Below the pieces are notes generated by a model. It ran no database searches and was not told the DNA's origin. It worked only from the letters and a program-made list of their open reading frames with translations. From NCBI GenBank assembly GCA_964572725.1, contig CAZNFW010000004.1, forward strand, positions 26,373 to 90,372: a stretch of DNA of 64,000 nucleotides, written 5' to 3'. The translations under genes and the position numbers were made by a program. This document shows, piece by piece, positions 4,866 to 50,967 of the stretch; within the stretch, counting starts at the first letter, position 1, and each line of letters opens with the position of its first letter. This DNA is from an uncultured Melioribacter sp. GTDB taxonomy: Bacteria; Bacteroidota; Ignavibacteria; Ignavibacteriales; Melioribacteraceae.

Positions 4866-6293
4866 TTATACATCAAAGTATTGCTCAAATTCGAATGGAT
4901 GTGGACGAAGTGCCATTGGTTTAATTTCCTTTTCAATTTTATAATTAATCCATGCATTAATTACATCTTCGGTAAATACATCTCCTTTAAGTAAATATTC
5001 GTGATCATCTGCAAGAGCTTTCAATGCAGCACCAAGAGATTCAGGAGTTGATGGTACGTTCTTTAATTCTTCTGGCGACATATCATAAATATCTTTATCG
5101 AGTGGTTCCCCGGGGTCAATTCTATTAATAATTCCATCAAGACCAGCCATTAAAATTGCTGAAAAAGCAAGATATGGATTGCTTGATGGATCAGGGCAAC
5201 GAAACTCTATACGTTTTGATTTAGGAGAAGGGGAATACATAGGAATTCTAATTGATGCACTTCTATTTCTTTGAGAATAAGCAAGATTAACAGGAGCCTC
5301 GAAACCGGGAACAAGTCTTTTGTAAGAATTTGTTGTTGGATTAGTAAATGCAAGAAGTGATGGTGCATGTTTCAATAAACCACCAATAAAATATAAAGCC
5401 ATTTCACTCAAACCTGCATAACCTCCGCCAGCAAACAATGGTTTATCTTTCAACCATAAACTAACATGAACATGCATGCCACTGCCATTATCACCAAAAA
5501 TTGGTTTGGGCATATAAGTAACTGTTTTGTTGTGTTTTCTTGCTGTATTTTTTACAATGTATTTGAACATCAACAGCTGATCAGCGGCTCTTAATAATGG
5601 CTTAAATTTCATATCGATTTCGCATTGACCTCCGCTTGCAACTTCGTGATGCTGAGCTTCTACTTCAATTCCAACTTTAATCAGGTTTTGAACCATTTCA
5701 TTTCTTAAGTCCATTAACTTATCTGTTGGAGGTACAGGGAAATATCCTTCTTTATAACGTGGTTTGTAACCAAGATTAGGATTTTCTTCTCTACCGGAAT
5801 TCCATTTTCCTTCTATTGAGTCAAGATGATAAAATGCAAAATTTGGTCCCGAATCAAAACGAACATCATCAAATACAAAAAATTCTGCCTCGGGCCCAAA
5901 ATAAGAAGTATCGGCAATTCCGGTTGATTTTAAGTAAGCTTCTGCTTTTTGAGCAATATTTCTCGGACAACGAGCATATTTTTCTTTTGTAATTGGCTCA
6001 TAAACATCACAAATCAGAGATAATGTTGGTGCTTCTATGAAAGGATCTAAAAACATTGTTTCGGGATCAGGAATAATAAGCATATCACTTTCATTTATAC
6101 TTTTCCAGCCTCTTATTGATGAACCATCAAATCCAAATCCACTTTCGAAAGATGATTCATCGAGCTGATTTGCTGGGACAGTAAAGTGCTGCCATTGACC
6201 CGGAAAATCCATGAATTTAAAATCAATAAATTCAATTTTGTTATCTTTAATAAACGATAGTACTTTTTCGATTGGTGATTCTGTTTTGCCCAT
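4866..6293 (-). CDS. glnA: Glutamine synthetase, type I
   Basis: 475 aa with GSI signatures ([32 protein letters not shown]) and a KDIYDM motif at the position of the adenylylation Tyr. Confidence 0.95.
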
Positions 6294-37445: not shown

Positions 37446-38816
37446 CTACTTAATTTCTATATTATATTTTTTTATTAAACGATACAAAGTTGCTCTTCCA
37501 ATTTTTAATTTTCTAGCTGCTTCAACCATATTCCTACCTGTTACTTTAATTGCATGGCGAATAGCAAGTTCTTCTAATTTTTCAATTGGAATTATTGGTG
37601 AATCATCTGAAAACAGAGCCGTTTTAGAATCAACAGCTATAGTTTGAGAAGTTATTGAAGGCGGAAGAACATCCACATCTATATAATCTCCATCAGTAAG
37701 AATCATACATCTTTCGAGAGTATTTTCAAGTTCACGAACATTTCCAGGCCAGTTATAATCATACATAAGTTTTAATGCACTTTTTGTTACGCCTTTAATA
37801 TTTTTGCCATGTTTTTGATTTAACTGTTTAATAAAGTGTTCTATTAAAACAACTATATCGGCTTTTCTTTCTCTTAATGGTGGAATATAAATAGGAAAAG
37901 AACTTAATCGATAATACAAATCTTCCCGAAAAAGTTTTTTATCGACACACTCTTTTAAATCTCTGTTTGTCGCAGAAATAATTCTCACATCTGTTTTAAT
38001 AATTTCGTTTCCTCCGACTCTTTCAAATTCTTTTTGCTGAATAACGCGAAGTATTTTTGCTTGAAGCGACATTTCCATTTCGCCAATTTCATCAAGAAAA
38101 ATTGTACCTCCATTTGCCAGTTCAAACTTCCCAATTTTTCTTTGATGTGCACCTGTGAATGCCCCCTTTTCATGACCAAATAATTCGCTTTCAAGAAGTT
38201 CTCTTGGTATTGATGCACAATTAACTACAACAAAAGGAGCATTTTTTCTTTTTCCATTATAATGGATTGCTCTGGCAATTAATTCTTTACCTGTTCCGCT
38301 TTCTCCCTGAATTAATACTGTTATATCATTATCAAGAACTTTCGAAACCATTCTGAAGGCTTCCTGCATTTTTTTATCTGCAGAAACAATGTTATCGAAG
38401 CTGTATTCTTTTTGAATATTTTCTTTCAGCTTTTTTAATTCTCGTTCTAGGTCATAATTCTTAATTGCATTTCTGATTGCAGATTCAAGTTTGCTTTTTT
38501 CAATAGGTTTAGGGAAATAATCAAAAGCTCCGAGTCTGATTGATTCAAGTGCAACTTCAATGCTCCCTTGTGCAGAAAGCATAATTACAGGCAATTGAGG
38601 ATTTTGTTGTTTTATCTTTACAAGCAATTCATTACCATTAATATCAGGCAGCATTATATCAAGCAAAATCAAATCTGGTTCTTCAGAAAGTGCTTCAATC
38701 ACGTCTGCGCCTGAAAGAAATGTTTTTACTTTGTAACCCCATTGGTTTTTACACCAATGTGTAAGCATTTTTAATATTGATTCTTCATCATCAACTATAA
38801 AAATTAATTTTTCCAA
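37446..38816 (-). CDS. Sigma-54-dependent response regulator (NtrC family: REC, AAA+, Fis-type HTH)
   Basis: It has REC (DLILLDIMLPDING), Walker A GESGTGKE, the sigma-54 contact loop GAFTGA, Walker B FLDEIGE, and the C-terminal HTH GRATLYRLIKK. Confidence 0.95.
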   Translation of the reverse strand: MEKLIFIVDDEESILKMLTHWCKNQWGYKVKTFLSGADVIEALSEEPDLILLDIMLPDINGNELLVKIKQQNPQLPVIMLSAQGSIEVALESIRLGAFDYFPKPIEKSKLESAIRNAIKNYDLERELKKLKENIQKEYSFDNIVSADKKMQEAFRMVSKVLDNDITVLIQGESGTGKELIARAIHYNGKRKNAPFVVVNCASIPRELLESELFGHEKGAFTGAHQRKIGKFELANGGTIFLDEIGEMEMSLQAKILRVIQQKEFERVGGNEIIKTDVRIISATNRDLKECVDKKLFREDLYYRLSSFPIYIPPLRERKADIVVLIEHFIKQLNQKHGKNIKGVTKSALKLMYDYNWPGNVRELENTLERCMILTDGDYIDVDVLPPSITSQTIAVDSKTALFSDDSPIIPIEKLEELAIRHAIKVTGRNMVEAARKLKIGRATLYRLIKKYNIEIK

Positions 38817-38831
38817 TTTACCCCTCTTAAG

Positions 38832-40727
38832 TTATTTGGGTAATCTAATGATAAATGTTGTTCCTTTGTTTTCTTCACTTTTTACTCTGATAATGCCTTT
38901 GTGCATATCTACAATTTGTTTTACGATTACAAGACCCATTCCTGCTCCAGATACAGGTGCATTTGGTCTGTATATTTTACTAAATTTTTGAAACAACTTT
39001 GGAATTTCCTTTTCGGGGATTCCTATACCTGTATCACTGATTGTAATCTCTGCCTCTTTGCCATAATCACTTATCATCAAGGAAATTCTTCCGCCATTTG
39101 GTGTATACTTAATTGCATTTGAAATAAGATTACTTAAAGCCTGTTTGATTCTTTTTTTATCGGCATAAATTTTTACTTCTTTTTCAGGATATTCTTTTGA
39201 TAAAACAATTTCTTTCTTTTTAATATCCTCAGAAAATTCTGCCGCAGTTTCATCCATAAGTTTTTTGATTTCAAATTCTTCTTTCTTTAATTCTTCTTCG
39301 CCAGTTTCAAGTTTTGAAAAATCAAGAACATCATTAATAATCTTAGCCAATCTTCTGCCTTCACTCAAAATTATTTCACTAAATTCTTTTATAGTTTCCC
39401 GTGGTAAATCTTCATCTGTTGCAATTGTTTCTGCAAAACCAACAACCGAAGCAAGCGGTGTTCTTAATTCATGTGAAATGTTTGATATAAATTCGCTCTT
39501 AAGTTTGCTTAATTCTTCAAGCAGACTAATCTTTTGACGTGCTCTTTCTCTTTCAATTGATATTATTCTGTTTGCTTCTATGAGTTTAGCATTCAAATCA
39601 CGAATTTTTTGTTCATCAATTTTTCTATTTGTAATATTCCTACCAATACCAATCATGCCAGAAACTTCGCCGTCAACTATCATAGGCTTTGAATGAATTT
39701 CAAATGTAATACTTTTGTCAAATCTGTCAACAAATGCAACTTCAAAAACAACTTTTTCTTGTGTAGTTAGTATTCTTGAAAAAGCTTCTGCAATTTTTTG
39801 TTCGTCTTCTTTATCTATAAAATCCAGAAAGTGTTTTCCAATCATTTCTTCTGGTTTATAACCAAGTGTATTAGCTCCATTTTTATTTACCATGTTAAAG
39901 TAACCAAATCCATTTAATATAAAAATCAAATCGTCTGCTGTATCTATCAGCATTCTAAATTTTTCTTCGGAGTTTTCAAGTTTAAGTCTTGTTATCTTTT
40001 CTTCTGTTATATCGAGAATTATTCCCACAATTCTAATAACATTCCCGCCTCTTAAAATTGGTATACCAGAATGCTTAACCCAGTGTTCTTTTCCAAATCT
40101 ATCTTTCATTTTATATTCTATAATAGAAGATTCGCCAGTTCTTAATTTTTCAATAAATTTTTTAAATGCTCCAAAATGTTCTTTTGCAATAGTTCTAAGA
40201 ATTAAAAATTTATTTTCATAAATTTCTTCGGGTGTAAATCCGAACAATTGTCTGACTGCCTCAGTAATAAAATAATATTCACTTCCATCTGCACTTGTAG
40301 AATACAGAACTGCTTGAATACTTCCAATTGATTCTTTTAATAATTGTTCTATTCCGATTTCTTTTGTAGCATCCGTAAATAACGAGATTACATAAGATTC
40401 ACTATTTTTTTCTGGTATAAACAATGAATTAACAATAAAAAATTTTTCTGAAGAATTTTTATCAATATATTTTAATCTAAAAATTGGAATGCTTTTTTCT
40501 TCTATTGCTGCTTTAATGAAAGGTAATTCTTGAAGTGATAATAAATTATTGCTTATGTCATAAAATTTTTCTTTGTTCCAGAAATTTATGCCGAAATTTT
40601 CGGGATTATCAAACAGATTTTTTAATTTACTGTTTGACACAATTTGTTTTGCTTTCGGGTAATTAATTAAAACAGGCGCATCAATTTCTTCAATAAGCTC
40701 TATAATATTTGTTGAACTATTAATCAT
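38832..40727 (-). CDS. Cytoplasmic multi-PAS sensor histidine kinase
   Basis: It has several PAS/PAC repeats, the H-box SHELRTPL, and ATPase boxes NAIKYT, DTGIGIP, GAGMGL. There is no TM segment. Confidence 0.9.
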   Translation of the reverse strand: MINSSTNIIELIEEIDAPVLINYPKAKQIVSNSKLKNLFDNPENFGINFWNKEKFYDISNNLLSLQELPFIKAAIEEKSIPIFRLKYIDKNSSEKFFIVNSLFIPEKNSESYVISLFTDATKEIGIEQLLKESIGSIQAVLYSTSADGSEYYFITEAVRQLFGFTPEEIYENKFLILRTIAKEHFGAFKKFIEKLRTGESSIIEYKMKDRFGKEHWVKHSGIPILRGGNVIRIVGIILDITEEKITRLKLENSEEKFRMLIDTADDLIFILNGFGYFNMVNKNGANTLGYKPEEMIGKHFLDFIDKEDEQKIAEAFSRILTTQEKVVFEVAFVDRFDKSITFEIHSKPMIVDGEVSGMIGIGRNITNRKIDEQKIRDLNAKLIEANRIISIERERARQKISLLEELSKLKSEFISNISHELRTPLASVVGFAETIATDEDLPRETIKEFSEIILSEGRRLAKIINDVLDFSKLETGEEELKKEEFEIKKLMDETAAEFSEDIKKKEIVLSKEYPEKEVKIYADKKRIKQALSNLISNAIKYTPNGGRISLMISDYGKEAEITISDTGIGIPEKEIPKLFQKFSKIYRPNAPVSGAGMGLVIVKQIVDMHKGIIRVKSEENKGTTFIIRLPK

Positions 40728-41906: not shown

Positions 41907-41976
41907 GATTATTTCACAAGCAGATTATTTATTAAATAAATAGATTTACAATGTCTTTTAATTACATTTGAATATA

Positions 41977-43200
41977 ATGGAAGCAAAATATAAAAATAAA
42001 CCCGAACTTTTAGCTCCTGCTGGCGACTGGAGTATGCTTAATGCAGCAATTAAAGCAGGTGCAAATGCAATTTATTTTGGTGTTGAAAGCCTTAATATGC
42101 GGGCAATGGCAAAAAATTTTGAACTCAAGGATTTGAGAGAAATTTCACAGATATGCAGAAAAAACAAAATTAAATCTCATCTTACACTAAACACTATAAT
42201 TTTTGAAAATGAACTTGATGAATTAGACAGAATTATTAGTGCTGCAAAAGAAAACGGAATTGATATGATAATTGGATGGGATTTAGCTGTACTTCAAAAA
42301 TGTAAAGAATATGATATGCCATTTTGTGTGAGCACACAGGCTTCGATTTCTAATTCTGAGGCTGCTAAATTCTATAAAAATCTTGGTGCAAAAAGAATAG
42401 TGCTTGCAAGAGAATGCACACTTGATAAAATTATCGAAATAAAAAACAAAGTTGATATAGAAATCGAAACATTTATACACGGAGCCATGTGCATAGCTGT
42501 AAGCGGCAGATGCTTTATGAGTCATGAAGTATTTAATAAAAGTGCTAATCGAGGAGAATGCCTTCAACCCTGCAGAAGAGAATATGAAATTTATGATAAA
42601 GACGAAAAATTTAGTTTAAGAATTGGGGATGGTTATGTTCTTTCTCCTAAAGATTTATGCACAATTGATTTCATTGACAAATTAATTGAAGCAAATATTG
42701 ATGCTTTCAAAATTGAAGGCAGAAAAAGAAGTCCTGAATACATTTACAAAGTTACATCCGTTTATAGAAATGCTATAGACTTATATTTCGAAAACAAATT
42801 AACAGATGAAATCAAACTAAAATTAACAGAAGAACTTTCAAAAGTTTATAACCGTGGATTTTCAAAAGGATTTTACTTTGGAACACCTGGAACAGAAGAT
42901 TTTGCTAACGCATACGGAAGCATTGCAACTACAAGAAAAATTTATGTGGGCAAAGTTTTAAACTATTACAAGAAAAACAAAATTGCTTACGTAAAAATTG
43001 AAGCTAACGATTTAAACATTGGTGATTCAATCTACATTATTGGCAATACTACTGGAGTGGTTGAATTAAAAATAGAAGAAATGATGCGGGAAGAAAATAA
43101 AATTATAAAAGCCGAAAAAGGATATGATATTACTTTCCCGTGCAAAGAACTTGTAAGAGAAAATGACAAGGTTTATAAAATTACTTCCACTCAAGCTTAG
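41977..43200 (+). CDS. Peptidase U32 family protein (collagenase-like / RNA hydroxylation-associated family)
   Basis: It has PELLAPAG and the U32 signature E.FIHGAMCIAVSGRCFMS. I prefer the ATG at 41977 over the TTG at 41968. Confidence 0.85.
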   Translation: MEAKYKNKPELLAPAGDWSMLNAAIKAGANAIYFGVESLNMRAMAKNFELKDLREISQICRKNKIKSHLTLNTIIFENELDELDRIISAAKENGIDMIIGWDLAVLQKCKEYDMPFCVSTQASISNSEAAKFYKNLGAKRIVLARECTLDKIIEIKNKVDIEIETFIHGAMCIAVSGRCFMSHEVFNKSANRGECLQPCRREYEIYDKDEKFSLRIGDGYVLSPKDLCTIDFIDKLIEANIDAFKIEGRKRSPEYIYKVTSVYRNAIDLYFENKLTDEIKLKLTEELSKVYNRGFSKGFYFGTPGTEDFANAYGSIATTRKIYVGKVLNYYKKNKIAYVKIEANDLNIGDSIYIIGNTTGVVELKIEEMMREENKIIKAEKGYDITFPCKELVRENDKVYKITSTQA

Positions 43201-43552
43201 GTTTTGAATTCATTATACCAAAACTTGCTAAAGCTTCATCAAGAGTTGAAAAAACCTTAAATACTTTGTCCATACGTGTGACCATAAAGACAAGCGAGGG
43301 AACATCTTTATTATAAACCAATCTCAAATCTCCTCCCAAAGAATTAACTTTCTTGAGCTGAGAAACTAAAGCACCCAAAAATGTTGAATCGATATATTCG
43401 CACAAAGTAAGGTCAATAATAATTTTTTTAATTCCTTCATTAATAACTTCTGTGACAAAATCTTTGAATTTTACAGCTTTTGTTAAAGTAGCTCTTGTTA
43501 AATAAATATGTATTACTGCTACATCTTTATATTTTTCAGTTTTAAATTCCAT
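43181..43552 (-). CDS. STAS-domain protein (anti-sigma-factor antagonist-like), copy 2
   Basis: 123 aa, paralogous to 37093..37437. Shared motifs are IDSTFLG, LKKV..LGGDL.LV and F.VF....A..SF. Confidence 0.8.
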   Translation of the reverse strand: MEFKTEKYKDVAVIHIYLTRATLTKAVKFKDFVTEVINEGIKKIIIDLTLCEYIDSTFLGALVSQLKKVNSLGGDLRLVYNKDVPSLVFMVTRMDKVFKVFSTLDEALASFGIMNSKPKLEWK

Positions 43553-43640
43553 AAACGAACAAAATTTTTTCTAATCTTAATATATAAATATTTGATTAGT
43601 TATGAAAATTATACGCTGCAATAAAGTTTCGAAACCTTTT

Positions 43641-43687
43641 AAAATAAAAAAGGCGAAGGGTATTGAAACTTGAACTTACCTTCGCCT
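43641..43687 (-). terminator. Strong intrinsic terminator (minus strand)
   Basis: On the minus strand the stem is aggcgaagg(ta) / (ta)cccttcgcct (9-12 bp, one bulged G), followed by ttttttatttt. The plus-strand reading has no U-tract. Confidence 0.7.
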
Positions 43688-43715
43688 CTTAAGGACGGAG
43701 CTTGTTTGTGTGTGT
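43641..43715 (-). ncRNA. Candidate ~75-nt sigma-54-dependent small RNA, or the terminated leader of the STAS-2 gene
   Basis: The predicted TSS is about 12 nt below the -12 GC. The transcript would read ACACACACAAACAAGCUCCGUCCUUAAG, then the terminator hairpin, then the U-tract. Confidence 0.35.
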
Positions 43716-43726
43716 ATAGCAACAAC

Positions 43727-43741
43727 GCAATTTAAGTGCCA
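43727..43741 (-). promoter_or_regulatory. Sigma-54 (-24/-12) promoter
   Basis: The minus strand reads TGGCACttaaaTTGC, an exact match to the TGGCAC-N5-TTGC consensus. It lies in an intergenic region, and two sigma-54 activators are encoded within 10 kb. Confidence 0.7.
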
Positions 43742-43845
43742 TTTATAAAAATGAAATTTTTCTAATATTTCACTGCATTATTATTTTATTTTATGCGAAT
43801 ATTTTTCGTGGCATCGGAAAATTATTCGGTCAATGTTTTGAAGAA

Positions 43846-44655
43846 TTAAAATGGAATTCTAATACTTAATTGAATTCCATTCTTAAACATCATAAATGAA
43901 TTTGACTCTGGATTTATAATTTCTTTCATGAAAATTTCATTATCATTAAAAAACAATAAATCAAGCTGACTATAAACCCACAGTGCAATGTAGGATATTA
44001 TTAAAATGTTTCTTGTTTTATATGATTTATTGTATAAATCATATTTCTGCTGAATCAACAAATTATCAACTTCATTCAAATAATCATTTTCTTTTTTGTT
44101 TGTATCGTAGATATAATAAACAGCAGCAGAAAGATTTATTAAAGAAAGAGCCCCGAGAAGTGAGCCTTTTGCTTTTAGACCGCAGGAAAATTGTCCTAAA
44201 CCGGGCAGAAAAATATTTCTTATTAAAGAATTTCTCAGAAGTGAATAATCAAAAAATTTCTGCTTTGAAATTTGCGTGCTATCAATCGGAATAGTTTCTG
44301 TTTTTAATGTATTGATAAAATCAACTTTTACCTGATTAAAAATTGTAATAAGCTTAGGAGATATTTTTGAAGGGTCAGCATTGTAGTCACTTTTTATCTT
44401 CAAAATTTCTTTGAAACTTTCTTTTGTTGAATCTTCAAAACCAAGTGTATAAAATGATACTGCTCTCATCAAATAAATGTCAATTAAAAGCGTATCGGGC
44501 AAAGATTTTTCTTTTAACAATACATTTGAATATTTAATTACATTTTCATATTCAAAAGAATCATATTCTCTTTTGACTTTTTCAAATGAGATTTCCTGAG
44601 CAAAAGTATTTAATGAATATAAAAACAATAAAAAGAAGAATATTTTTTTAATCAT
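43846..44655 (-). CDS. Hypothetical exported/membrane protein, with a TPR-like N-terminal half and a C-terminal membrane segment (possibly DUF5683-like)
   Basis: It has a signal peptide, helical repeats, and an FLPGLGQFSCG...LGALSL hydrophobic region. Its start overlaps the upstream gene by 4 nt (ATGA). Confidence 0.45.
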   Translation of the reverse strand: MIKKIFFFLLFLYSLNTFAQEISFEKVKREYDSFEYENVIKYSNVLLKEKSLPDTLLIDIYLMRAVSFYTLGFEDSTKESFKEILKIKSDYNADPSKISPKLITIFNQVKVDFINTLKTETIPIDSTQISKQKFFDYSLLRNSLIRNIFLPGLGQFSCGLKAKGSLLGALSLINLSAAVYYIYDTNKKENDYLNEVDNLLIQQKYDLYNKSYKTRNILIISYIALWVYSQLDLLFFNDNEIFMKEIINPESNSFMMFKNGIQLSIRIPF

Positions 44656-45941
44656 TTGAGAAGAACCATTTTTCTGGTTTGAATTAGATTATCTGTTTTC
44701 AAACATACAAAATAAATTCCTGCTGGAACTTCTTTGCCAAATTTATCTTTTCCATTCCAATCAATTGAATATCTTCCAGCATAAAGATTTCCATGTTTCA
44801 ATGTTATTATATGCTGACCAAGCAGAGAATAAATATCAAGTGAAACAGAAGAATATCTTGATAATTCAAATGAAATTGTTGTATTTGGATTAAAAGGATT
44901 AGGATAGTTCTGAAATAATACATCGGTTTTTGGCAGTTCATTTTTTTCTTCATTATCGGATTTAGTTGTAACAAGTGCAAGTTTTTCAAGATATGGAACA
45001 ATATTTCCATTTTCATCTCTTCCGCCAAAAACAACAATTGTATTTCCATAATTAATTGCCATTGGATTTCTTCTTGCATATTTAAGAGAGGGGAATGGAT
45101 AAACAAGAACTCTTCCATCACTTAAAATGTCAATTGCTTCAACGGACTTGAGAGCTCTATCGGTTTCATTAAAACCGCCAATTATAAAACCTCTTTTTAA
45201 TACAGAATTGTAAATAGCCACTCCTCCGGCTCGGGGAGTTAAAAGTTTTTGCGGCAGTTCTTCTATTTTATTTTTAGCAATATCAAATTTATTAATTGAA
45301 GAAAGAGCACCATTTAAAATTCCACCAAAAATATAAATGTTATTATCAAGAAGAATACTCATCTGCTGCTTTGGCTGATTTTGACTTGTGGTTCCGTAAG
45401 TAAAATTTATTTTTTTGTTTATTAAATCATATCCAATAATATAAGGAAGTTCTGCAGCTCCGCTCGGGATAGGTTCACCTCCTATAACATACAACAAATT
45501 ATTTTTTATATATCCAGTAGAAAAAGCTCTTGCAAAATTATCCTGAGTATCAAAAACAATAGGATCAGATGGAATCGATTTATAATTCCATGATTCCATA
45601 ATATTTTTTTCCTGAGAAAACTCACTTACTCCGCCAAAATATAGAATTTGCGACTGCCATATGTTTGCCACAAACAAATATCTCGGCTGATTCATTTTGC
45701 CAACAATTTTCCATTCACCCGAAAGAATATTGTATTCCTGAATCCAGTCAACAACTTCTTTTGAAGAATTTTCTCCACCAAGTACATAAAATTTATTGCT
45801 AACTGTATCGTATACAACCTGGCCTCCCGAAACAGGAAACTTCATATCCCATCCGGTTACAACCTGCCATTCCCAATTCTGTGCAAGAATTGGCAGGGCA
45901 AATAATATCAATATGGTAAAAATTTTTCTTCTCATACTCAC
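44652..45941 (-). CDS. Secreted Kelch-repeat beta-propeller protein with a T9SS C-terminal sorting domain
   Basis: It has a signal peptide and repeated ...YV.GG... / W..V Kelch-like blades. The C-terminus is NYPNPFNPNTTISF...GIYFVCL. Confidence 0.8.
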   Translation of the reverse strand: MSMRRKIFTILILFALPILAQNWEWQVVTGWDMKFPVSGGQVVYDTVSNKFYVLGGENSSKEVVDWIQEYNILSGEWKIVGKMNQPRYLFVANIWQSQILYFGGVSEFSQEKNIMESWNYKSIPSDPIVFDTQDNFARAFSTGYIKNNLLYVIGGEPIPSGAAELPYIIGYDLINKKINFTYGTTSQNQPKQQMSILLDNNIYIFGGILNGALSSINKFDIAKNKIEELPQKLLTPRAGGVAIYNSVLKRGFIIGGFNETDRALKSVEAIDILSDGRVLVYPFPSLKYARRNPMAINYGNTIVVFGGRDENGNIVPYLEKLALVTTKSDNEEKNELPKTDVLFQNYPNPFNPNTTISFELSRYSSVSLDIYSLLGQHIITLKHGNLYAGRYSIDWNGKDKFGKEVPAGIYFVCLKTDNLIQTRKMVLLK

Positions 45942-45974: not shown

Positions 45975-47528
45975 TCATTTTTCCTTTAATACAAATTTAA
46001 GTTGAATAGTATCTCCCTGTTTAATATAAAAACTTGTATCAATATCCCGATAATTTGGATTTTTAACAGATAATCTCACAAAACCGGGAAAAACTCTTAT
46101 TAATTCTTTCATAGGAGTTTGACCTTTGAAATCCCCGTTTACATAAATGTTACCCCACGGATTAACTTTGCAATTTATATATCCCATCAACGATTCAAGT
46201 GAAACTTTTAAGTTTGTTACCTGCGAATGATTTATTTTAATAACTTCAGAATAAATTGGATAGTCGGGATGAACTAATTTAACAGTGTGTTCTCCTTCTG
46301 TTAAAGTTAATGGTTTGGTCATTGGTGTAGTTTCAAGTTTTTCTCCATCAACATAAACATCAGCCCATGGGAAACATTCAACAAATAATCCTCCATATTT
46401 AAGTGTAGTTATCTCAGCAGCTCTATTTGTTTGATTCTCTGTTGTTTGAGCAGCAATCAAACTGGAATCATTTTTATCACCGGGTGATAGTTTTTCCCTC
46501 TGTGCAACTTTTTCTTTTGCCGGTTCATTTTTTTGTTGATTTATCTTTTGTTCAGATGGCAAAGCTTTTTTTAATTGTATTTGATTTAAGAAAACAGTCA
46601 GCGCTATTAATAGAACTATTAAAGCAACCCCCGAAATAATAATCTTTGTCTTTCTTCTATTGTAGTTTACATCTTTGCTCAAAGAAATTGTCAATTGTTC
46701 TGGTTGAACATTTAATTCATTTAATACTTCAAGTGCAGAATTATAGCGAAACGCAGGTTTTTTCTTTAAAAGACGAATAATAATTTGTCTAATTTCTTCT
46801 GATATTTCACTCAGTCCTTCAATAATACTGTTTTCATTGTAAGACATTATTTCGTTTAAAGTAAGAGTAACATTTTCTTTTAAGAATGGGTTTTTTCCTG
46901 TAAACATTTCATATATCACAACGCCTGCGGAAAACAAATCACTTTGATAAGTTAGTTTTGCTCCTGCTACCTGTTCTGGCGACATGTAACTGGGCGTTCC
47001 AACAATTGAATAAGGACTTGTCACAAAATTATCTTCTGCAGAGAGTGCCAGTCCAAAATCACCCAGTTTTAAGTTCATGTTATTGTCAATAAAAATATTT
47101 TCTGGTTTTATATCTCGATGAATAATTTTATTTGAATGAGCAAAATGAATGGCTTTGAAAAGTTGTATTGTTAAAAGTTTTTTTTCTTCATAAGAAAGAT
47201 TTCGGTGTTTTAATAAATTTCTTAAACTTTCGCCTTCAATGTATTCAAATGAAATGTAGAAATATTCTTTGCTTGTTCCAAAATCGAGAACTTTAATAAT
47301 ATTAGGATGGTCAAGTTTTGCAAGTAATTTTGCTTCACGTTTGAATCTTTCGATTAATGTTTGGTCAGATATTTTTTCTGTATTAAGGACTTTCAGAATA
47401 ATTTTTTTATTTAGATAAATATGATTGGCAAGATAAACTGCAGCGTGTTCATCTTTTTTGAGTACATCAAGAATTTCAAACTTCTCGAATAATATTTCTG
47501 TTGAACTAAGCATCGTTTTGCTGTTCAC
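45975..47528 (-). CDS. Hanks-type Ser/Thr protein kinase with a TM helix and extracytoplasmic PEGA domains
   Basis: It has the catalytic loop HRDIKPENI, DFG, and an SPEQ (APE-like) motif. A TM helix IIISGVALIVLLIALTVFL follows, then two PEGA-like repeats (VYVDGEKLETTP, IYVNGDFKGQTP). Confidence 0.9.
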   Translation of the reverse strand: MNSKTMLSSTEILFEKFEILDVLKKDEHAAVYLANHIYLNKKIILKVLNTEKISDQTLIERFKREAKLLAKLDHPNIIKVLDFGTSKEYFYISFEYIEGESLRNLLKHRNLSYEEKKLLTIQLFKAIHFAHSNKIIHRDIKPENIFIDNNMNLKLGDFGLALSAEDNFVTSPYSIVGTPSYMSPEQVAGAKLTYQSDLFSAGVVIYEMFTGKNPFLKENVTLTLNEIMSYNENSIIEGLSEISEEIRQIIIRLLKKKPAFRYNSALEVLNELNVQPEQLTISLSKDVNYNRRKTKIIISGVALIVLLIALTVFLNQIQLKKALPSEQKINQQKNEPAKEKVAQREKLSPGDKNDSSLIAAQTTENQTNRAAEITTLKYGGLFVECFPWADVYVDGEKLETTPMTKPLTLTEGEHTVKLVHPDYPIYSEVIKINHSQVTNLKVSLESLMGYINCKVNPWGNIYVNGDFKGQTPMKELIRVFPGFVRLSVKNPNYRDIDTSFYIKQGDTIQLKFVLKEK

Positions 47529-49005
47529 CCATCTCTTTTAATTTTAGTTGAATCCATCGAACTGAAACATCAAGTGATTTTGCAGTTAATGTTCTATTGC
47601 CATTAAATTCTTCAAGACGTTTTTTAAGCAGCAGCAATTCAAATTCTTTAAGTGTTCCTTTGAAATTCATTAAGTCCTGATTATCTTCAAGAATTATATG
47701 TTCTGCATAAATTTTATCAGAATCACATAAAATAAGTGCTCTCTGAATTACATTTATTAGCTGACGAACATTACCGGGCCAATAATAACTTTCCATTTTT
47801 TTGATTGCAGAAGAATCTATAGGAATATTTTTTTTCGCAATCTTTTTAACAAAGTAGCTTGCAAGCAATGGAATATCTTCCCGTCGTTCTCTCAATGGCG
47901 GCATTTTAATCGGAAATACATTTAACCTGTAAAACAAATCTTCTCTAAATTGACCTTCTTTAGTAAGCGCATTTAAATCTTTATTTGTAGCTGCAATTAT
48001 TCTTACATCTACTTTTTTTACTCTTGTATCGCCAAGACGAATTATCTCGCGGTTTTCAAGAACTCTTAAAAGTTTTGCCTGAAGTGCATTTGAAATATCA
48101 GCAATTTCATCAAGGAAAAATGTCCCTCCATCTGCAGCTTCAATCAAACCTTGTTTGTCTGTGTTTGCTCCAGTAAAAGCTCCTTTCTTATATCCAAACA
48201 GCTCACTTTCAAGGAGACTATCCGGGATTGAACCGCAAAACTGAGCAAGAAATGGTTTGTCTTTTCTTCTGCTTAATTGATGAATTGCACGTGCAGCAAC
48301 TTCTTTTCCCGTTCCGCTTTCTCCAGTTATTAAAACTGTTGCATCTGTTTGTGCAACTTTATGAATTAACTTTGTTAGATTTTGAATGGCGGTGCTGTTG
48401 CCAACCATTTCAGGAATAATTTCAGAGGATTGAAGTTTATTGGTTAATATTCTGTTTTCTTTTTCTAATTCTTCGAGTTTTATTATTCTGTCTAATGTTA
48501 AAGATACAAGATTCGAAAAGAAGTTTAAGAAAATTAAATTCTCTTCTGTAAATTCACGTCGGTCTAATGTGCTGTCCGCAATAATTACTCCCCAGACTTT
48601 GTCGTCACGCATTATAGGAACACCAATTACAGATTTAATTCTATGAATTTGCACGCTCTGAAATTGTGATAAATTTGGGTCGCCCATTACATCGTGATAT
48701 AAAAGCGGCCGTTTTTCTTTGATTACTTTTTGAAGAATTCCTGAAGAAAATTGATTCAGGTCAGTTATGCTTTCATTTGAAATTTTTCTTGCTGTTATAA
48801 TTGAAAAACTATCTGTTGCCTCATCGTATTTTACAAATAAACCTCGTTCTGCATTGATAATTTTTATTACGATATCAATTACATCTTCTATAAAAGATTC
48901 TTGATAACTCGATGAGTTAAGAAGTTGACTGAATTCAAAGAGTGCTTCAAATTCTTCTTTAGAGAGATTTTTTATGTAATTAATATTTTCTGGTATAAAT
49001 TTCAT
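47506..49005 (-). CDS. Sigma-54-dependent transcriptional activator with an N-terminal GAF domain
   Basis: It has a GAF-like N-terminus, Walker [22 protein letters not shown], and a C-terminal HTH. Its stop overlaps the kinase gene start by 23 nt. Confidence 0.9.
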
Positions 49006-49020
49006 GATTAATCTCTGAAA

Positions 49021-50967
49021 TTATTTTACCGTAAATGTTCCCGGTTTTGAAATTGAACTATTTCCAAAATCATCTATACAAATTACAACCCAGAAATAAT
49101 CACCCGCAGGCAAAGTTATGTCGCATGTTGTTTCAGTTGCATCTTTCGAAATATTTTTTTTCTCCCAAACTAAAATTGGAGCGGTTTCATCTGTGTAAAC
49201 CTGAACTGCATATTTAAAATTGAATCCCGGACTAAATTTTTTCCAGACGAATGTAGGACTGCTGCTTACCACAGCTCTATTAACTGGTGAATCAATTATA
49301 ATTTCTTGTGTAATTAGTCTTTTAATATTAGATGACCCAATTGTAAATATTCTTCCCGATTTATCTTTTGCTACAATTGTAAAATCTGTACCAATTGCAT
49401 CTTCGATGGAGTTTATCTTTAAATCTATTGTTCTGAAATTATTTTCATATTTGTTTGTTTCTAAATTGTAGATTAATCTCTTATAAAAATTTAATGAATT
49501 GTTTTTAACAAAAACTGTATCAACATCATTTTCATCATCAGCAATTGTTGCTTGAACATAAAGTCTTTGAACCTGAATATCAGGATATCTGTTCTGAACC
49601 GTTGTAAAAATTGAAAGTTCTGTTAAACGCGGATCAGCATTCAAGAATCTGTCGTCTATTTGTTTAACAGGTCGATTATCAAATTGAACAAAAACAGAAT
49701 CTTTGCTGTAACCGTCTTTCTCAAAATAAAGCCATCCGTTATTTTGAACTACATTGTCTAATTGGTATTTTCCTGCAGCATCCGTTTGAGTAATCATTGA
49801 TTGATTTTTCCAAAATACTTTTACATTTGGAATTACTCTGCGCGGCAGTGCTACTGTTTTAACATAACCTAAAATTGTAGCTGTAGTATAACTCAAAGTC
49901 CTATCGCTCATTCTTAAAGAGTTTTGACCATTCCAGCTTACATAAACTGAATCTTTTTTGAATCCATATTTTTCGAAATAAAGCCATCCATCTTTTATAG
50001 AAACATTTTGAAGTTTATAATAACCGCTCGAATTTGTTTCGCTGAAAATATTTTGATTTTTCCATAAAACTTTAACATCCTTCAAAGGATTTCGTGAAAT
50101 ATCATAAACAAATCCATCAATCGTTCCAATTGTGTAATAAAGAATTACTTCATTAACTCTTATTGTTTTTTGATTATTCCATCTAACATAAACAGAATCT
50201 TTGGCAAAGCCGTCCTTTTCAAAATAAAGCCATCCATCATTCATAGAAATATTTTCCAGTTTATAATAACCTTCATAATTTGTTTGCACAAGAATATTTT
50301 GATTCTTCCAGAAAACATTTACATTTGACAAAGCTGAACGGGGAACAGCATAAACAAATCCATCAAGTGTTCCAATAGTTGGATATAAAATTACATCAGA
50401 AATATGTTTGACTTCTTCATTATTCCACTCAACAAAAAAAGAATCGCGGGATAATCCTTCCTTTTCAAAATAAAGCCATCCATCATTCATAGAAATATTT
50501 TCCAGTTTATAATAACCATCGGAATTTGTTTCAGCAAAAACCTTCTGATTTTTCCACAAAACTCTTACATTTTCAACAGCATTTCTTGGAACTGTGTAAA
50601 CATATCCATCAAGCTGACCACGAGTATAACTTAAAATGAATTCTTGCAAATGTTTTATTTTTTGATTATTCCATTCCACATAAATAGAATCTTGTGATAA
50701 TCCTTCTTTTTCAAAAATTAACATCCCATCTTTCATTTGAATATTTTCAATTCTGAAATAACCTTGAGAATTGGTTAGTGCAAAAACATTTTGATTTTTC
50801 CAGATTACTTTTACACCTGCTAAAGCAGCACGATTAGAAGATAAAACATAACCGTCAATTAAACCCAATTTATTGTTAGGATTTCGAGAATCAAGCAGAT
50901 TTAATCTTGGTGCATCACAAGATATTATACCCAGAAGAGTCAGTATTATCAGTAATATTTTTTTCAT
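49021..50967 (-). CDS. Lipoprotein with five tandem 82-aa carboxypeptidase-regulatory-like repeats and an Ig/FN3-like C-terminal region
   Basis: It has the lipobox LLGIISC. Five units match the pattern xDG(Y/F)V....V.V.WKNQ....TN..GYYKLENISMNDGWLYFEK.G...DS.YV.WNN. Confidence 0.7.
   Translation of the reverse strand: MKKILLIILTLLGIISCDAPRLNLLDSRNPNNKLGLIDGYVLSSNRAALAGVKVIWKNQNVFALTNSQGYFRIENIQMKDGMLIFEKEGLSQDSIYVEWNNQKIKHLQEFILSYTRGQLDGYVYTVPRNAVENVRVLWKNQKVFAETNSDGYYKLENISMNDGWLYFEKEGLSRDSFFVEWNNEEVKHISDVILYPTIGTLDGFVYAVPRSALSNVNVFWKNQNILVQTNYEGYYKLENISMNDGWLYFEKDGFAKDSVYVRWNNQKTIRVNEVILYYTIGTIDGFVYDISRNPLKDVKVLWKNQNIFSETNSSGYYKLQNVSIKDGWLYFEKYGFKKDSVYVSWNGQNSLRMSDRTLSYTTATILGYVKTVALPRRVIPNVKVFWKNQSMITQTDAAGKYQLDNVVQNNGWLYFEKDGYSKDSVFVQFDNRPVKQIDDRFLNADPRLTELSIFTTVQNRYPDIQVQRLYVQATIADDENDVDTVFVKNNSLNFYKRLIYNLETNKYENNFRTIDLKINSIEDAIGTDFTIVAKDKSGRIFTIGSSNIKRLITQEIIIDSPVNRAVVSSSPTFVWKKFSPGFNFKYAVQVYTDETAPILVWEKKNISKDATETTCDITLPAGDYFWVVICIDDFGNSSISKPGTFTVK
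49630..50859 (-). repeat. Intragenic tandem repeat, five copies of 246 nt
   Basis: The period is 246 nt. An identical 58-nt block, ccttttcaaaataaagccatccatcattcatagaaatattttccagtttataataacc, occurs at 50214-50271 and again at 50460-50517. Confidence 0.85.

What the first reader, a model, noticed from the sequence alone, without database searches (positions are those of the whole stretch)
43641..43741. A perfect sigma-54 promoter runs straight into an intrinsic terminator: candidate sigma-54-dependent sRNA or attenuator
On the minus strand, 43741-43727 reads TGGCACttaaaTTGC, an exact -24/-12 consensus. It was the only such match I found by eye in the window. The predicted +1 (about 43715) starts a CA-rich, apparently unpaired stretch, ACACACACAAACAAGCUCCGUCCUUAAG. 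A 9-12-bp GC-rich hairpin (43687-43651) and a UUUUUUAUUUU tract follow. That architecture (sigma-54 promoter, about 30-nt seed, terminator, about 75 nt in total) matches known sigma-54-dependent sRNAs such as Qrr and GlmY. I know of no described example in the FCB/Ignavibacteria lineage. The GCUCC segment could pair with GGAG-type ribosome-binding sites. Alternatively, the hairpin is a regulated attenuator in the roughly 165-nt leader of the STAS-2 gene, which starts at 43552.
Basis: partly seen in the sequence, partly recalled or inferred. Interest (0 to 1): 0.8.

Follow-up and report, generated by a model that had tools for sequence, protein, structure and literature searches.

The report
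Conserved sigma-54-driven small RNA gene
This stretch is very probably a gene for a roughly 74-nucleotide regulatory RNA, switched on by the sigma-54 transcription machinery and conserved with its promoter and activator-binding sites across the Melioribacteraceae; no such RNA appears to have been described in this bacterial group.

Summary
TGGCACTTAAATTGC (43741-43727, minus strand) is the only exact -24/-12 match in the window. About 12 nt downstream begins a CA-rich unpaired stretch, then a 12-bp GC-rich hairpin and a U-tract.

Comparison makes this more than a pattern match. A covariance model built from the RNA alone finds exactly one copy in the window, 43 genomes and 27 metagenome contigs. 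All are Melioribacteraceae, and all have the same neighbours wherever the contig reaches them. Every copy is preceded by GGCAY-N5-TTG at a fixed distance. In 62 of 67 cases, one or two CGAA-W5-TTCG palindromes lie 30-190 nt further upstream, as expected for an enhancer. The core GUCCUUAAG (usually CUCCGUCCUUAAG) and the stem are nearly invariant, while the flanks are randomised.

The window encodes two sigma-54 activators with GAFTGA loops. The RNA occurs only next to the GAF-domain activator cluster.

The STAS gene downstream keeps its own promoter-like block with or without the RNA, and no antiterminator structure is conserved. The attenuator alternative is therefore weak.

There is no Rfam match and no paper. 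Targets, expression and the responsible activator remain untested. I file it as a new sRNA family of a known kind (sigma-54-dependent sRNAs such as Qrr, GlmY and CrcZ).

The parts
43816..43828 (-). Distal enhancer (UAS) half of a tandem pair: CGAATAATTTTCC, a CGAA-W5-TTCG-type palindrome with 1 mismatch, about 100-113 nt upstream of the predicted +1
   Evidence: The same palindrome type lies upstream of 62 of 67 orthologous promoters, and 23 of them have two copies.
43796..43808 (-). Proximal enhancer (UAS) site CGAAAAATATTCG, an exact palindrome type, about 81-93 nt upstream of +1. It is the presumed binding site of a sigma-54 activator.
   Evidence: Background frequency is 0.153 per kb. This is the only such pair in the window.
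43727..43741 (-). Sigma-54 promoter, -24 TGGCAC and -12 TTGC
   Evidence: Unique exact match in the window. GGCAY-N5-TTG(C/A/T) precedes all 70 distinct RNA copies at a fixed distance, with a freely varying spacer. Background for this pattern is 0.008 per 85-nt window.
43643..43715 (-). Predicted small RNA, about 73 nt, from the predicted +1 (43715 +/-2) to the U-tract
   Evidence: Covariance model R1 hit at 43643-43720, 68.6 bits, E about 1e-11. Predicted length across the family is 61-79 nt, median 74.
43702..43715 (-). CA-rich 5' end, ACACACACAAACAA, predicted unpaired
   Evidence: An (AC)n run is present in most copies and absent from the eight short-5'-end sequences (for example L025, L044, L057-L059).
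43688..43700 (-). Invariant C/U-rich core CUCCGUCCUUAAG, the candidate seed; GUCCUUAAG is 96-100% conserved
   Evidence: RNAalifold predicts it unpaired except for the last 3 nt.
43648..43690 (-). Terminator hairpin: arms 43690-43679 and 43659-43648, 19-nt loop containing AAGUUU
   Evidence: dG -16.5, z -3.96. 97% of cells paired; compensatory C-G>U-A and G-C>A-U changes. A[AG]UUU occurs in 62 of 70 loops.
43641..43651 (-). U-tract UUUUUUAUUUU
   Evidence: Across the family there are at least 6 U in the 9 nt after the stem.
43579..43608 (-). Sigma-70-like promoter of the STAS gene (TTTTCA-N18-TATATT), downstream of the terminator. It is not part of the RNA but bears on the attenuator alternative.
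   Evidence: The equivalent block ..TTCA-TATATT.. lies 35-50 nt before the ATG in orthologues with and without the RNA.
43181..43552 (-). STAS-domain protein (anti-sigma-factor antagonist type), the conserved downstream neighbour
47506..49005 (-). GAF-AAA+-HTH_8 sigma-54 activator with a GAFTGA loop, about 3.8 kb upstream on the same strand; candidate activator of the promoter
   Evidence: It is 75-98% identical across the family, and the RNA is found only beside this gene cluster.

Best explanation
Window 43715-43643 (minus strand) is an independent gene for a small RNA of about 74 nt.

Inferred mechanism:
- RNA polymerase with sigma-54 binds the -24/-12 element at 43741-43727.
- It stays closed until an enhancer-binding ATPase, bound to the tandem CGAA-W5-TTCG palindromes at 43828-43796, remodels it.
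- The most likely activator is the GAF-domain protein encoded at 47506-49005, at the head of the same gene cluster. That protein sits next to a Ser/Thr kinase.
- Transcription starts at the CA run and stops at the GGCGAAGG/CCUUCGCC hairpin plus U-tract.
- The product has a single-stranded 5' part whose invariant C/U-rich core (CUCCGUCCUUAAG) resembles an anti-Shine-Dalgarno sequence. It most likely pairs in trans with G-rich sites of the AAGGA/GGAG type, at or near ribosome-binding sites of mRNAs encoded elsewhere, and changes their translation or stability.

Shown in silico: the anatomy, its co-conservation, the enhancer sites, and the presence of activators.

Inferred only: that the RNA is made, which activator drives it, that it acts by base pairing, and its targets.
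For: The promoter is unique in the window. The hairpin is far more stable than shuffles.

A model built from the RNA only, without the promoter, finds one copy in the window, 43 of 80 related genome loci and 27 metagenome contigs. Wherever the contig extends far enough, the copy lies between the p269 gene and STAS.

All 70 distinct copies carry GGCAY-N5-TTG at a fixed distance, against a background of 0.008 per 85-nt window, and the spacer is unconstrained.

Enhancer palindromes lie upstream of 62 of 67 promoters, against 0.153 per kb elsewhere. Their distance varies from 31 to 192 nt, as expected for DNA looping.

Core and stem are 90-100% conserved, whereas the 45 nt downstream sit at 0.42 majority frequency.

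The stem is 97% paired with two compensatory pairs, and RNAalifold leaves the 5' part unpaired.

Both activators in the window have GAFTGA. The RNA is never found where the GAF-activator cluster is missing, although the other activator and its kinase stay in place there.

In two distant relatives the same enhancer plus promoter lies just downstream of the p269 homologue.
Against: - There is no expression data of any kind.
- The -12 position is C in only 61% of copies (A 20%, T 19%). From my own knowledge of sigma-54 promoter compilations, this position is normally near-invariant.
- No target was found. Complementarity to the translation-initiation regions of 47 window genes and of the conserved neighbours is at background level.
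- The stem and loop are conserved in sequence rather than by covariation. That fits protein recognition at least as well as simple termination.
- Eleven genomes keep the activator cluster but lack the RNA, so the cluster does not need it.
- Linking the RNA to the GAF activator rests on co-occurrence of physically adjacent DNA. A single deletion would give the same pattern.
- rpoN itself was not seen.
Confidence: 0.6

Rival explanations
1. It is a protein-sequestering (sponge or decoy) RNA. It is the same sigma-54-driven transcript, but it works by binding a protein through the sequence-conserved hairpin (GGCGAAGG stem, AAGUUU loop) and/or the CA run. GlmY titrates RapZ in this way, and CrcZ titrates Hfq/Crc.
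For: Six of the 8 core stem pairs never vary, and the loop motif A[AG]UUU is kept in 62 of 70 copies although loop length and the remaining loop sequence drift. That is more sequence constraint than a terminator needs. The CA-rich 5' end recalls the CA motifs of CrcZ (my own knowledge). No base-pairing target was found.
Against: There is only one copy of each motif, whereas known sponges carry several. The eight short-5'-end sequences (for example L025, L044, L057-L059) lack the CA run. Melioribacter copies have short loops without AAGUUU. The most conserved stretch is the unpaired C/U-rich core, which is typical of a seed.
Confidence: 0.2
2. It is a cis-acting leader or attenuator. The sigma-54 promoter serves the STAS gene, and the hairpin is a conditional terminator that some factor overrides.
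For: The element is always on the same strand as STAS and upstream of it. Some read-through of any intrinsic terminator is possible.
Against: - RNAalifold finds no conserved alternative (antiterminator) pairing, only the terminator.
- The terminator is strong, with at least 6 U in all copies.
- The promoter lies 189 nt before the STAS ATG in the window and 206-594 nt before it in the loci scanned.
- STAS has its own conserved promoter-like block 35-50 nt before the ATG. STAS orthologues without the element keep that block.
Confidence: 0.1
3. The RNA is mainly the processed 3' end of the upstream operon (through the p269 gene). The hairpin is that operon's terminator. The sigma-54 site adds little or is a silent binding site.
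For: No terminator-like structure lies between the p269 stop (43846) and the promoter, so operon transcripts probably run into this hairpin. Non-productive sigma-54 binding sites are common in other bacteria (title and abstract of PMC4591121, listed).
Against: A silent site would not keep -24, -12 and a tandem enhancer at the correct geometry in 70 diverged sequences while the surrounding intergenic DNA is randomised. The two origins are not exclusive.
Confidence: 0.07
4. The promoter match is a chance match placed before an ordinary terminator.
For: A single exact match in 64 kb has about a 5% chance.
Against: All the comparative results above.
Confidence: 0.02

Closest known systems
Qrr1-5 of Vibrio (LuxO/sigma-54-dependent sRNAs)
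   Same: Both are short RNAs made from a sigma-54 promoter with upstream activator sites, ended by an intrinsic terminator, and encoded beside the activator's own locus (qrr1 lies next to luxO). Both have a conserved unpaired region used as a seed.
   Different: There is no sequence or structure homology: no Rfam hit, even at E up to 10. Qrr RNAs have four stem-loops and several paralogues. This RNA has one hairpin and one copy. The activator here has a GAF domain, not a receiver domain. Dependence on Hfq is unknown.
CrcZ/CrcY of Pseudomonas (CbrB/sigma-54-dependent)
   Same: Both have a sigma-54 promoter, lie downstream of the gene cluster that encodes the activator, and contain a CA-rich sequence.
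   Different: CrcZ is about 400 nt with several A-rich motifs and acts by sequestering Hfq/Crc. This RNA is about 74 nt with a single CA run that some lineages lack. There is no Rfam match.
GlmY (and GlmZ in some species) of Enterobacteria (GlrR/sigma-54)
   Same: Both are sigma-54-dependent small RNAs with activator sites upstream.
   Different: GlmY is about 150-180 nt, has three stem-loops, and acts by protein mimicry on RapZ. There is no homology.
Pxr of Myxococcus and NrsZ of Pseudomonas (NtrC-type activator/sigma-54 sRNAs)
   Same: Both are lineage-restricted sRNAs under sigma-54 and an enhancer-binding protein. In Myxococcus, sigma-54 activators are wired to Ser/Thr kinases, as the gene order suggests here.
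   Different: There is no homology, and the size and fold differ. The kinase link here is only gene adjacency.
C-rich-seed sRNAs of Firmicutes (RsaE/RoxS type)
   Same: Both have an unpaired C-rich motif resembling an anti-Shine-Dalgarno sequence, expected to pair with G-rich ribosome-binding sites.
   Different: The promoter type, the fold (there the C-rich motifs sit in loops, often duplicated) and the phylum all differ. Pairing here is only inferred.

Membership tests
Sigma-54-dependent promoter | GG at -24 and GC at -12, 10 nt apart, within YTGGCACG-N4-TTGCW | tested here: met
   TGGCACTTAAATTGC at 43741-43727, the only exact match in the window.
Sigma-54-dependent promoter | The element is conserved in orthologous regions while the spacer drifts | tested here: met
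   All 70 distinct copies have GGCAY-N5-TTG. T at -25 is 89%, the spacer positions are 37-54%, but the -12 C is only 61%. Background is 0.008 per 85 nt.
Sigma-54-dependent promoter | Upstream activator (enhancer) sites at about -70 to -200 | tested here: met
   Tandem CGAA-W5-TTCG palindromes at 43828-43796. Present for 62 of 67 promoters, 31-192 nt from -24.
Sigma-54-dependent promoter | The genome encodes sigma-54 and at least one enhancer-binding protein | tested here: inconclusive
   Two activators with a Sigma54_activat domain and a GAFTGA loop are in the window. rpoN itself is not in the window or in any fetched locus, and whole genomes could not be searched.
Sigma-54-dependent promoter | The transcript start at +1 depends on rpoN and on the activator | not testable with these tools
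   Needs dRNA-seq or 5'-RACE and mutants, or in vitro transcription.
Trans-acting base-pairing sRNA | Own promoter and own intrinsic terminator, with no ORF | tested here: met
   There is no start codon in the transcript, and a conserved in-frame TAA lies in the core (read directly from the sequence). Only mechanical ORFs overlap it.
Trans-acting base-pairing sRNA | A conserved single-stranded seed | tested here: met
   GUCCUUAAG is 96-100% conserved and the preceding CUCC 84-96%. It is unpaired in the MFE and alifold structures.
Trans-acting base-pairing sRNA | An identifiable mRNA target with conserved complementarity | tested here: inconclusive
   Nothing exceeds background among 47 window genes or the conserved neighbours. 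Whole genomes were not available.
Qrr (RF00378), GlmY (RF00128), GlmZ (RF00083), CrcZ (RF01675) and other Rfam families | A match to the family covariance model | tested here: not met
   No family reaches its gathering score in the window. None of these appears even at E up to 10 in 43400-44000. The accession numbers are from memory.
Transcription attenuator / riboswitch-type leader | Mutually exclusive terminator and antiterminator structures conserved across species | tested here: not met
   RNAalifold returns only the 8-bp terminator core. Possible 4-6-bp pairings in the 5' part differ between lineages (read directly from the alignment).
Transcription attenuator / riboswitch-type leader | Fixed coupling to the regulated downstream ORF, which has no promoter of its own | tested here: not met
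   The distance is variable. A conserved TATATT promoter-like block lies between the terminator and STAS, and is also present in loci without the element.

The most novel reading that the evidence does not exclude
The RNA is the dedicated output of a signalling chain with the logic of LuxO-Qrr but built from different parts: a eukaryote-like Ser/Thr kinase, then a GAF-domain activator, then sigma-54, then a single sRNA. These bacteria appear to use Shine-Dalgarno sequences rarely (3 of 47 genes in the window). In that setting the anti-Shine-Dalgarno-like seed (CUCC...UCCUUA) would act selectively on the few mRNAs that do carry such a site. This would be a regulatory niche not described for the FCB superphylum.
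Probability: 0.15. Interest if true: 0.7.

Novelty: new member of a known kind. Interest (0 to 1): 0.5.

Why it matters
Regulatory RNAs of the Ignavibacteria are essentially uncharted. I found no paper on any sRNA in Melioribacter or its relatives, and no report of a sigma-54-dependent sRNA in the FCB group.

This candidate comes with an unusually complete, testable set of parts:
- a defined promoter;
- a defined enhancer palindrome;
- two candidate activators, one beside a Ser/Thr kinase;
- a 13-nt invariant seed.

It also occurs in cultured strains (Rosettibacter primus, Melioribacter spp.). It could therefore serve as an entry point to post-transcriptional control and to the sigma-54 regulon in this phylum, and as a new Rfam family. 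It does not change how sigma-54 or sRNAs are thought to work.

Tried and rejected
- **Rfam.** Nothing at gathering score in the whole window. Only noise at E up to 10 around the site, including a 19-bit terminator-only resemblance to STnc40.
- **tRNA/tmRNA.** None.
- **Second copies.** None in the window or in 160 loci. One weak hit, L087 at 27.5 bits, is an ordinary terminator after a T9SS-tail gene.
- **Small ORF reading.** Rejected. The transcript has no start codon, and there is a conserved in-frame stop.
- **Targets.** The exact complement of the seed occurs in the window only as the gene's own opposite strand. 8-mer complements in all loci show no recurrent position near a start codon; a recurrent AAGGACGG inside the CarboxypepD_reg gene is coding sequence. 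RNAduplex against the start regions of conserved neighbours gives means of -7 to -12 kcal/mol against a background median of -10.2. Against 47 window genes the best is -12.0, weaker than the typical best obtained with shuffled seeds (mean -14.3).
- **Other promoter types.** A sigma-70-type or Bacteroidetes-type promoter reading of the conserved TTG does not fit, because no -10 or TAnnTTTG element sits at the right spacing (read directly from the sequence).
- **rpoN.** Not in the window. No RpoN-box motif in any fetched locus.
- **Literature.** No relevant hit in five searches.
- **Source organism.** The exact STAS protein is found only on a 1.3-kb contig.

Full report
**1. The observation**

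On the minus strand, 43741-43727 reads TGGCACTTAAATTGC. This is the only exact TGGCAC-N5-TTGC match in the window. Shuffles expect 0.06, and 5 of 100 shuffles give at least one. With two mismatches allowed there are 29 sites against 34 expected, so only the exact site stands out.

Twelve nucleotides after the -12 C, at 43715, begins ACACACACAAACAAGCUCCGUCCUUAAG. A hairpin follows with arms 43690-43679 and 43659-43648, an 8-bp core GGCGAAGG/CCUUCGCC and a 19-nt loop. Then comes UUUUUUAUUUU at 43651-43641.

The 76-nt stretch folds at -16.5 kcal/mol with its 5' 26 nt unpaired. The z-score is -3.96, and none of 200 shuffles folds as well. The STAS gene starts at 43552.

**2. Surroundings**

Reading along the minus strand, the genes are:
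- a CarboxypepD_reg-repeat protein (49021-50967);
- a GAF-AAA+-HTH_8 sigma-54 activator (47506-49005);
- a Ser/Thr kinase with PEGA domains (45975-47528);
- a Kelch protein with a T9SS sorting tail (44652-45941);
- a 269-aa protein with no family match, called p269 here (43846-44655);
- the element;
- the STAS gene (43181-43552).

Further along are a convergent U32 peptidase gene, an MFS transporter, a PAS histidine kinase and a second, response-regulator-type sigma-54 activator (37446-38816). Both activators carry the GAFTGA loop that contacts sigma-54. rpoN itself is not in the window. By established knowledge of these proteins, activators of this type act only with sigma-54.

**3. Related sequences**

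The STAS protein has close orthologues (63-93% identity) annotated as Melioribacteraceae or Ignavibacteria. An alignment of them retrieved 80 genome loci; the closest is Rosettibacter primus at 93%.

Upstream of STAS, many loci show the same arrangement as the window. I built a covariance model from the RNA part only, starting about 8 nt after the -12 element, so that the promoter was not in the model.

- The model finds exactly one copy in the window and one in each of 43 of the 80 loci, at 45-94 bits.
- A pattern scan of metagenome contigs followed by the model added 27 more copies.
- Every copy lies between the p269 homologue and STAS wherever the contig is long enough.
- One weak extra hit (L087) is an unrelated terminator.
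- There is no second copy in the window.

**4. What is conserved**

Across 70 distinct sequences, counting from the first G of the -24 GG:
- T at -1 is 89%.
- GGCA is invariant; the search pattern fixed G, G and A and allowed only C or T at the third base, and all 70 have C.
- The next base is C or T.
- Four of the five spacer positions are 37-51% conserved; the first is 54%.
- TTG is invariant; the pattern fixed the second T and the G and allowed only T or C at the first base, and all 70 have T.
- The -12 base is C 61%, A 20%, T 19%.

All 70 model hits carry this element at a fixed distance. The same pattern occurs only 0.008 times per 85-nt window elsewhere in the loci. The predicted start falls at the first bases of an (AC)n run.

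Anchored profiles show the CUCC preceding the core at 84-96% and GUCCUUAAG at 96-100%. The 3' arm of the stem is at 0.99 and the tail at 0.87. The 45 nt downstream are at 0.42, which is no conservation.

Eight sequences, for example L025, L044 and L057-L059, lack the CA run. Their predicted start is about 5 nt before CCUCCGUCC. Three Melioribacter copies carry an extra small hairpin between the CA run and the core. Predicted length is 61-79 nt, median 74.

**5. Structure**

The 12-pair helix is 97% paired. Two pairs change on both sides: C-G to U-A in three Melioribacter sequences, and G-C to A-U in five others. Six pairs never vary. Sliding the partner drops pairing to 47-71%.

RNAalifold independently returns only the 8-bp core and leaves the 5' part open. 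Covariation is therefore modest; the stem is mostly conserved as sequence. The loop keeps an A[AG]UUU motif in 62 of 70 copies.

**6. Enhancer**

Upstream of the window promoter lie CGAATAATTTTCC (43828-43816) and CGAAAAATATTCG (43808-43796). Together they form a 12-nt inverted repeat separated by 9 nt. There is no other such pair in the window.

The palindrome CGAA-W5-TTCG, allowing one mismatch, occurs within 220 nt upstream of 62 of 67 promoters, and twice in 23 of them. It lies 31-192 nt (median about 104) from the -24 element. Its frequency elsewhere is 0.153 per kb. This is the geometry of a sigma-54 enhancer.

**7. Which activator**

Of the 43 genome loci with the RNA, 40 have the p269 gene cluster upstream. 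The other three are cut by contig ends. In 26 loci without that cluster there is no RNA, although most of them keep the kinase and response-regulator activator pair in place. Eleven loci keep the cluster but lack the RNA.

In two distant relatives the same palindromes plus a GGCAT-N5-TTG element again sit just after a p269 homologue. There they drive something else: a transcript of about 400 nt without a convincing ORF in L065, and a 124-aa signal-peptide protein in L078.

This ties the enhancer to the GAF-activator cluster rather than to the STAS side. It remains association between adjacent DNA, not proof.

**8. sRNA or attenuator**

Four points argue against an attenuator:
- No alternative pairing is conserved.
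- The terminator is strong in all copies.
- The promoter lies 189 nt before the STAS ATG in the window and 206-594 nt before it in the loci scanned.
- STAS orthologues carry a conserved block (GTTTTCTATT...TTCA-TATATT-G) 35-50 nt before the ATG. In the window it corresponds to TTTTCA-N18-TATATT at 43608-43579. The block is present whether or not the RNA is there.

No terminator lies between the p269 stop and the promoter. Operon transcripts probably also end at this hairpin, so a processed 3'-end species may coexist with the primary transcript.

**9. Function**

The invariant core contains CUCC and UCCUUA. These resemble the 3' end of 16S rRNA (my own knowledge), so the core would pair with GGAG or AAGGA-type sites.

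Only 3 of 47 window ORFs have such a motif at -20 to -4, so potential sites are few. I found no target:
- The complement of the seed occurs only as the gene's own opposite strand.
- Complement 8-mers in all loci are not positioned recurrently near start codons.
- Duplex energies with neighbours and window genes are at background or below shuffled-seed controls.

Whole genomes were not available. Base pairing in trans is therefore my preferred mechanism by analogy. A protein-binding role is a serious rival because of the sequence-conserved hairpin.

**10. Comparison with what is known**

Sigma-54-dependent sRNAs are a known kind: Qrr, GlmY, CrcZ, Pxr and NrsZ (my own knowledge; Qrr/LuxO also appear in the abstracts listed). 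None of their Rfam models, nor any other, matches here. The fold, a single terminator hairpin, also differs from theirs. Five literature searches found nothing on sRNAs in Melioribacter or Ignavibacteria, or on sigma-54-dependent sRNAs in the FCB group.

**11. Verdict**

This is a real, strongly conserved, lineage-restricted transcription unit with all the sequence hallmarks of an activator-dependent sigma-54 promoter driving a small non-coding RNA. I classify it as a new family of a known kind.

My rough estimates, conditional on the preceding step, are about 0.85 that it is a sigma-54-driven sRNA gene, about 0.5 that it acts by base pairing, and about 0.55 that the GAF activator drives it. 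I give 0.6 for the explanation as a whole, weighted toward the first claim.

Interest is 0.5. It is a good, experimentally tractable candidate in an unexplored phylum, but it is not surprising in principle.

Noticed in passing
L065:6287-6760: In a distant Melioribacteraceae MAG, the same enhancer palindrome (GCGAAAAATATTCGC) and TGGCATTAATTTTGG follow the p269 homologue. They are followed by about 400 nt without a convincing ORF and then a strong terminator. This may be a different, longer sigma-54-driven RNA.
   Followed up: partly
L078:380-856: Two enhancer palindromes plus TGGCATTTAATTTGA sit downstream of a p269-like gene end. They drive a 124-aa signal-peptide protein that resembles the N-terminal part of p269. 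The enhancer-promoter module at this position is therefore older than the sRNA.
   Followed up: partly
window 43579-43608 and the equivalent positions in L001-L062: STAS orthologues share a conserved promoter-like block (GTTTTCTATT...TTCA-TATATT-G) 35-50 nt before the ATG. Several of these leaders also begin CA-rich, for example TATATTgACACACACAA in L017, which echoes the 5' end of the sRNA.
   Followed up: partly
whole window (47 ORFs of at least 120 aa): Only 3 ORFs have AGGAG, GGAGG or AAGGA at -20 to -4, so Shine-Dalgarno use looks rare, as in Bacteroidota. Glutamine synthetase (4866-6293, minus strand) is one of the three.
   Followed up: no
window 43181-43200: The STAS gene (minus strand) and the convergent U32 peptidase gene (41968-43200, plus strand) overlap by 20 nt at their 3' ends.
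   Followed up: no
window 37446-40727: A PAS histidine kinase and an NtrC-type sigma-54 activator (with GAFTGA) form a second sigma-54 signalling pair. It stays in conserved synteny with STAS even in genomes that lack the sRNA and the GAF cluster. Its target promoter was not found in the window.
   Followed up: partly
window 43688-43693 (minus strand): The CUUAAG in the invariant core is a palindrome (CCUUAAGG in many variants), so two RNA molecules could pair with each other. Melioribacter copies have CUUAAU instead.
   Followed up: no
window 43624-43639: The palindrome AAAGGTTTCGAAACTTT lies just after the U-tract, and its sequence can also pair with the terminator loop (I3 and I13). It is not conserved in the closest relative L001, so it is probably incidental.
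   Followed up: partly
window 47506-47528: The GAF activator gene and the Ser/Thr kinase gene overlap by 23 nt, which suggests translational coupling. The pair is syntenic in nearly all loci that have the cluster.
   Followed up: no
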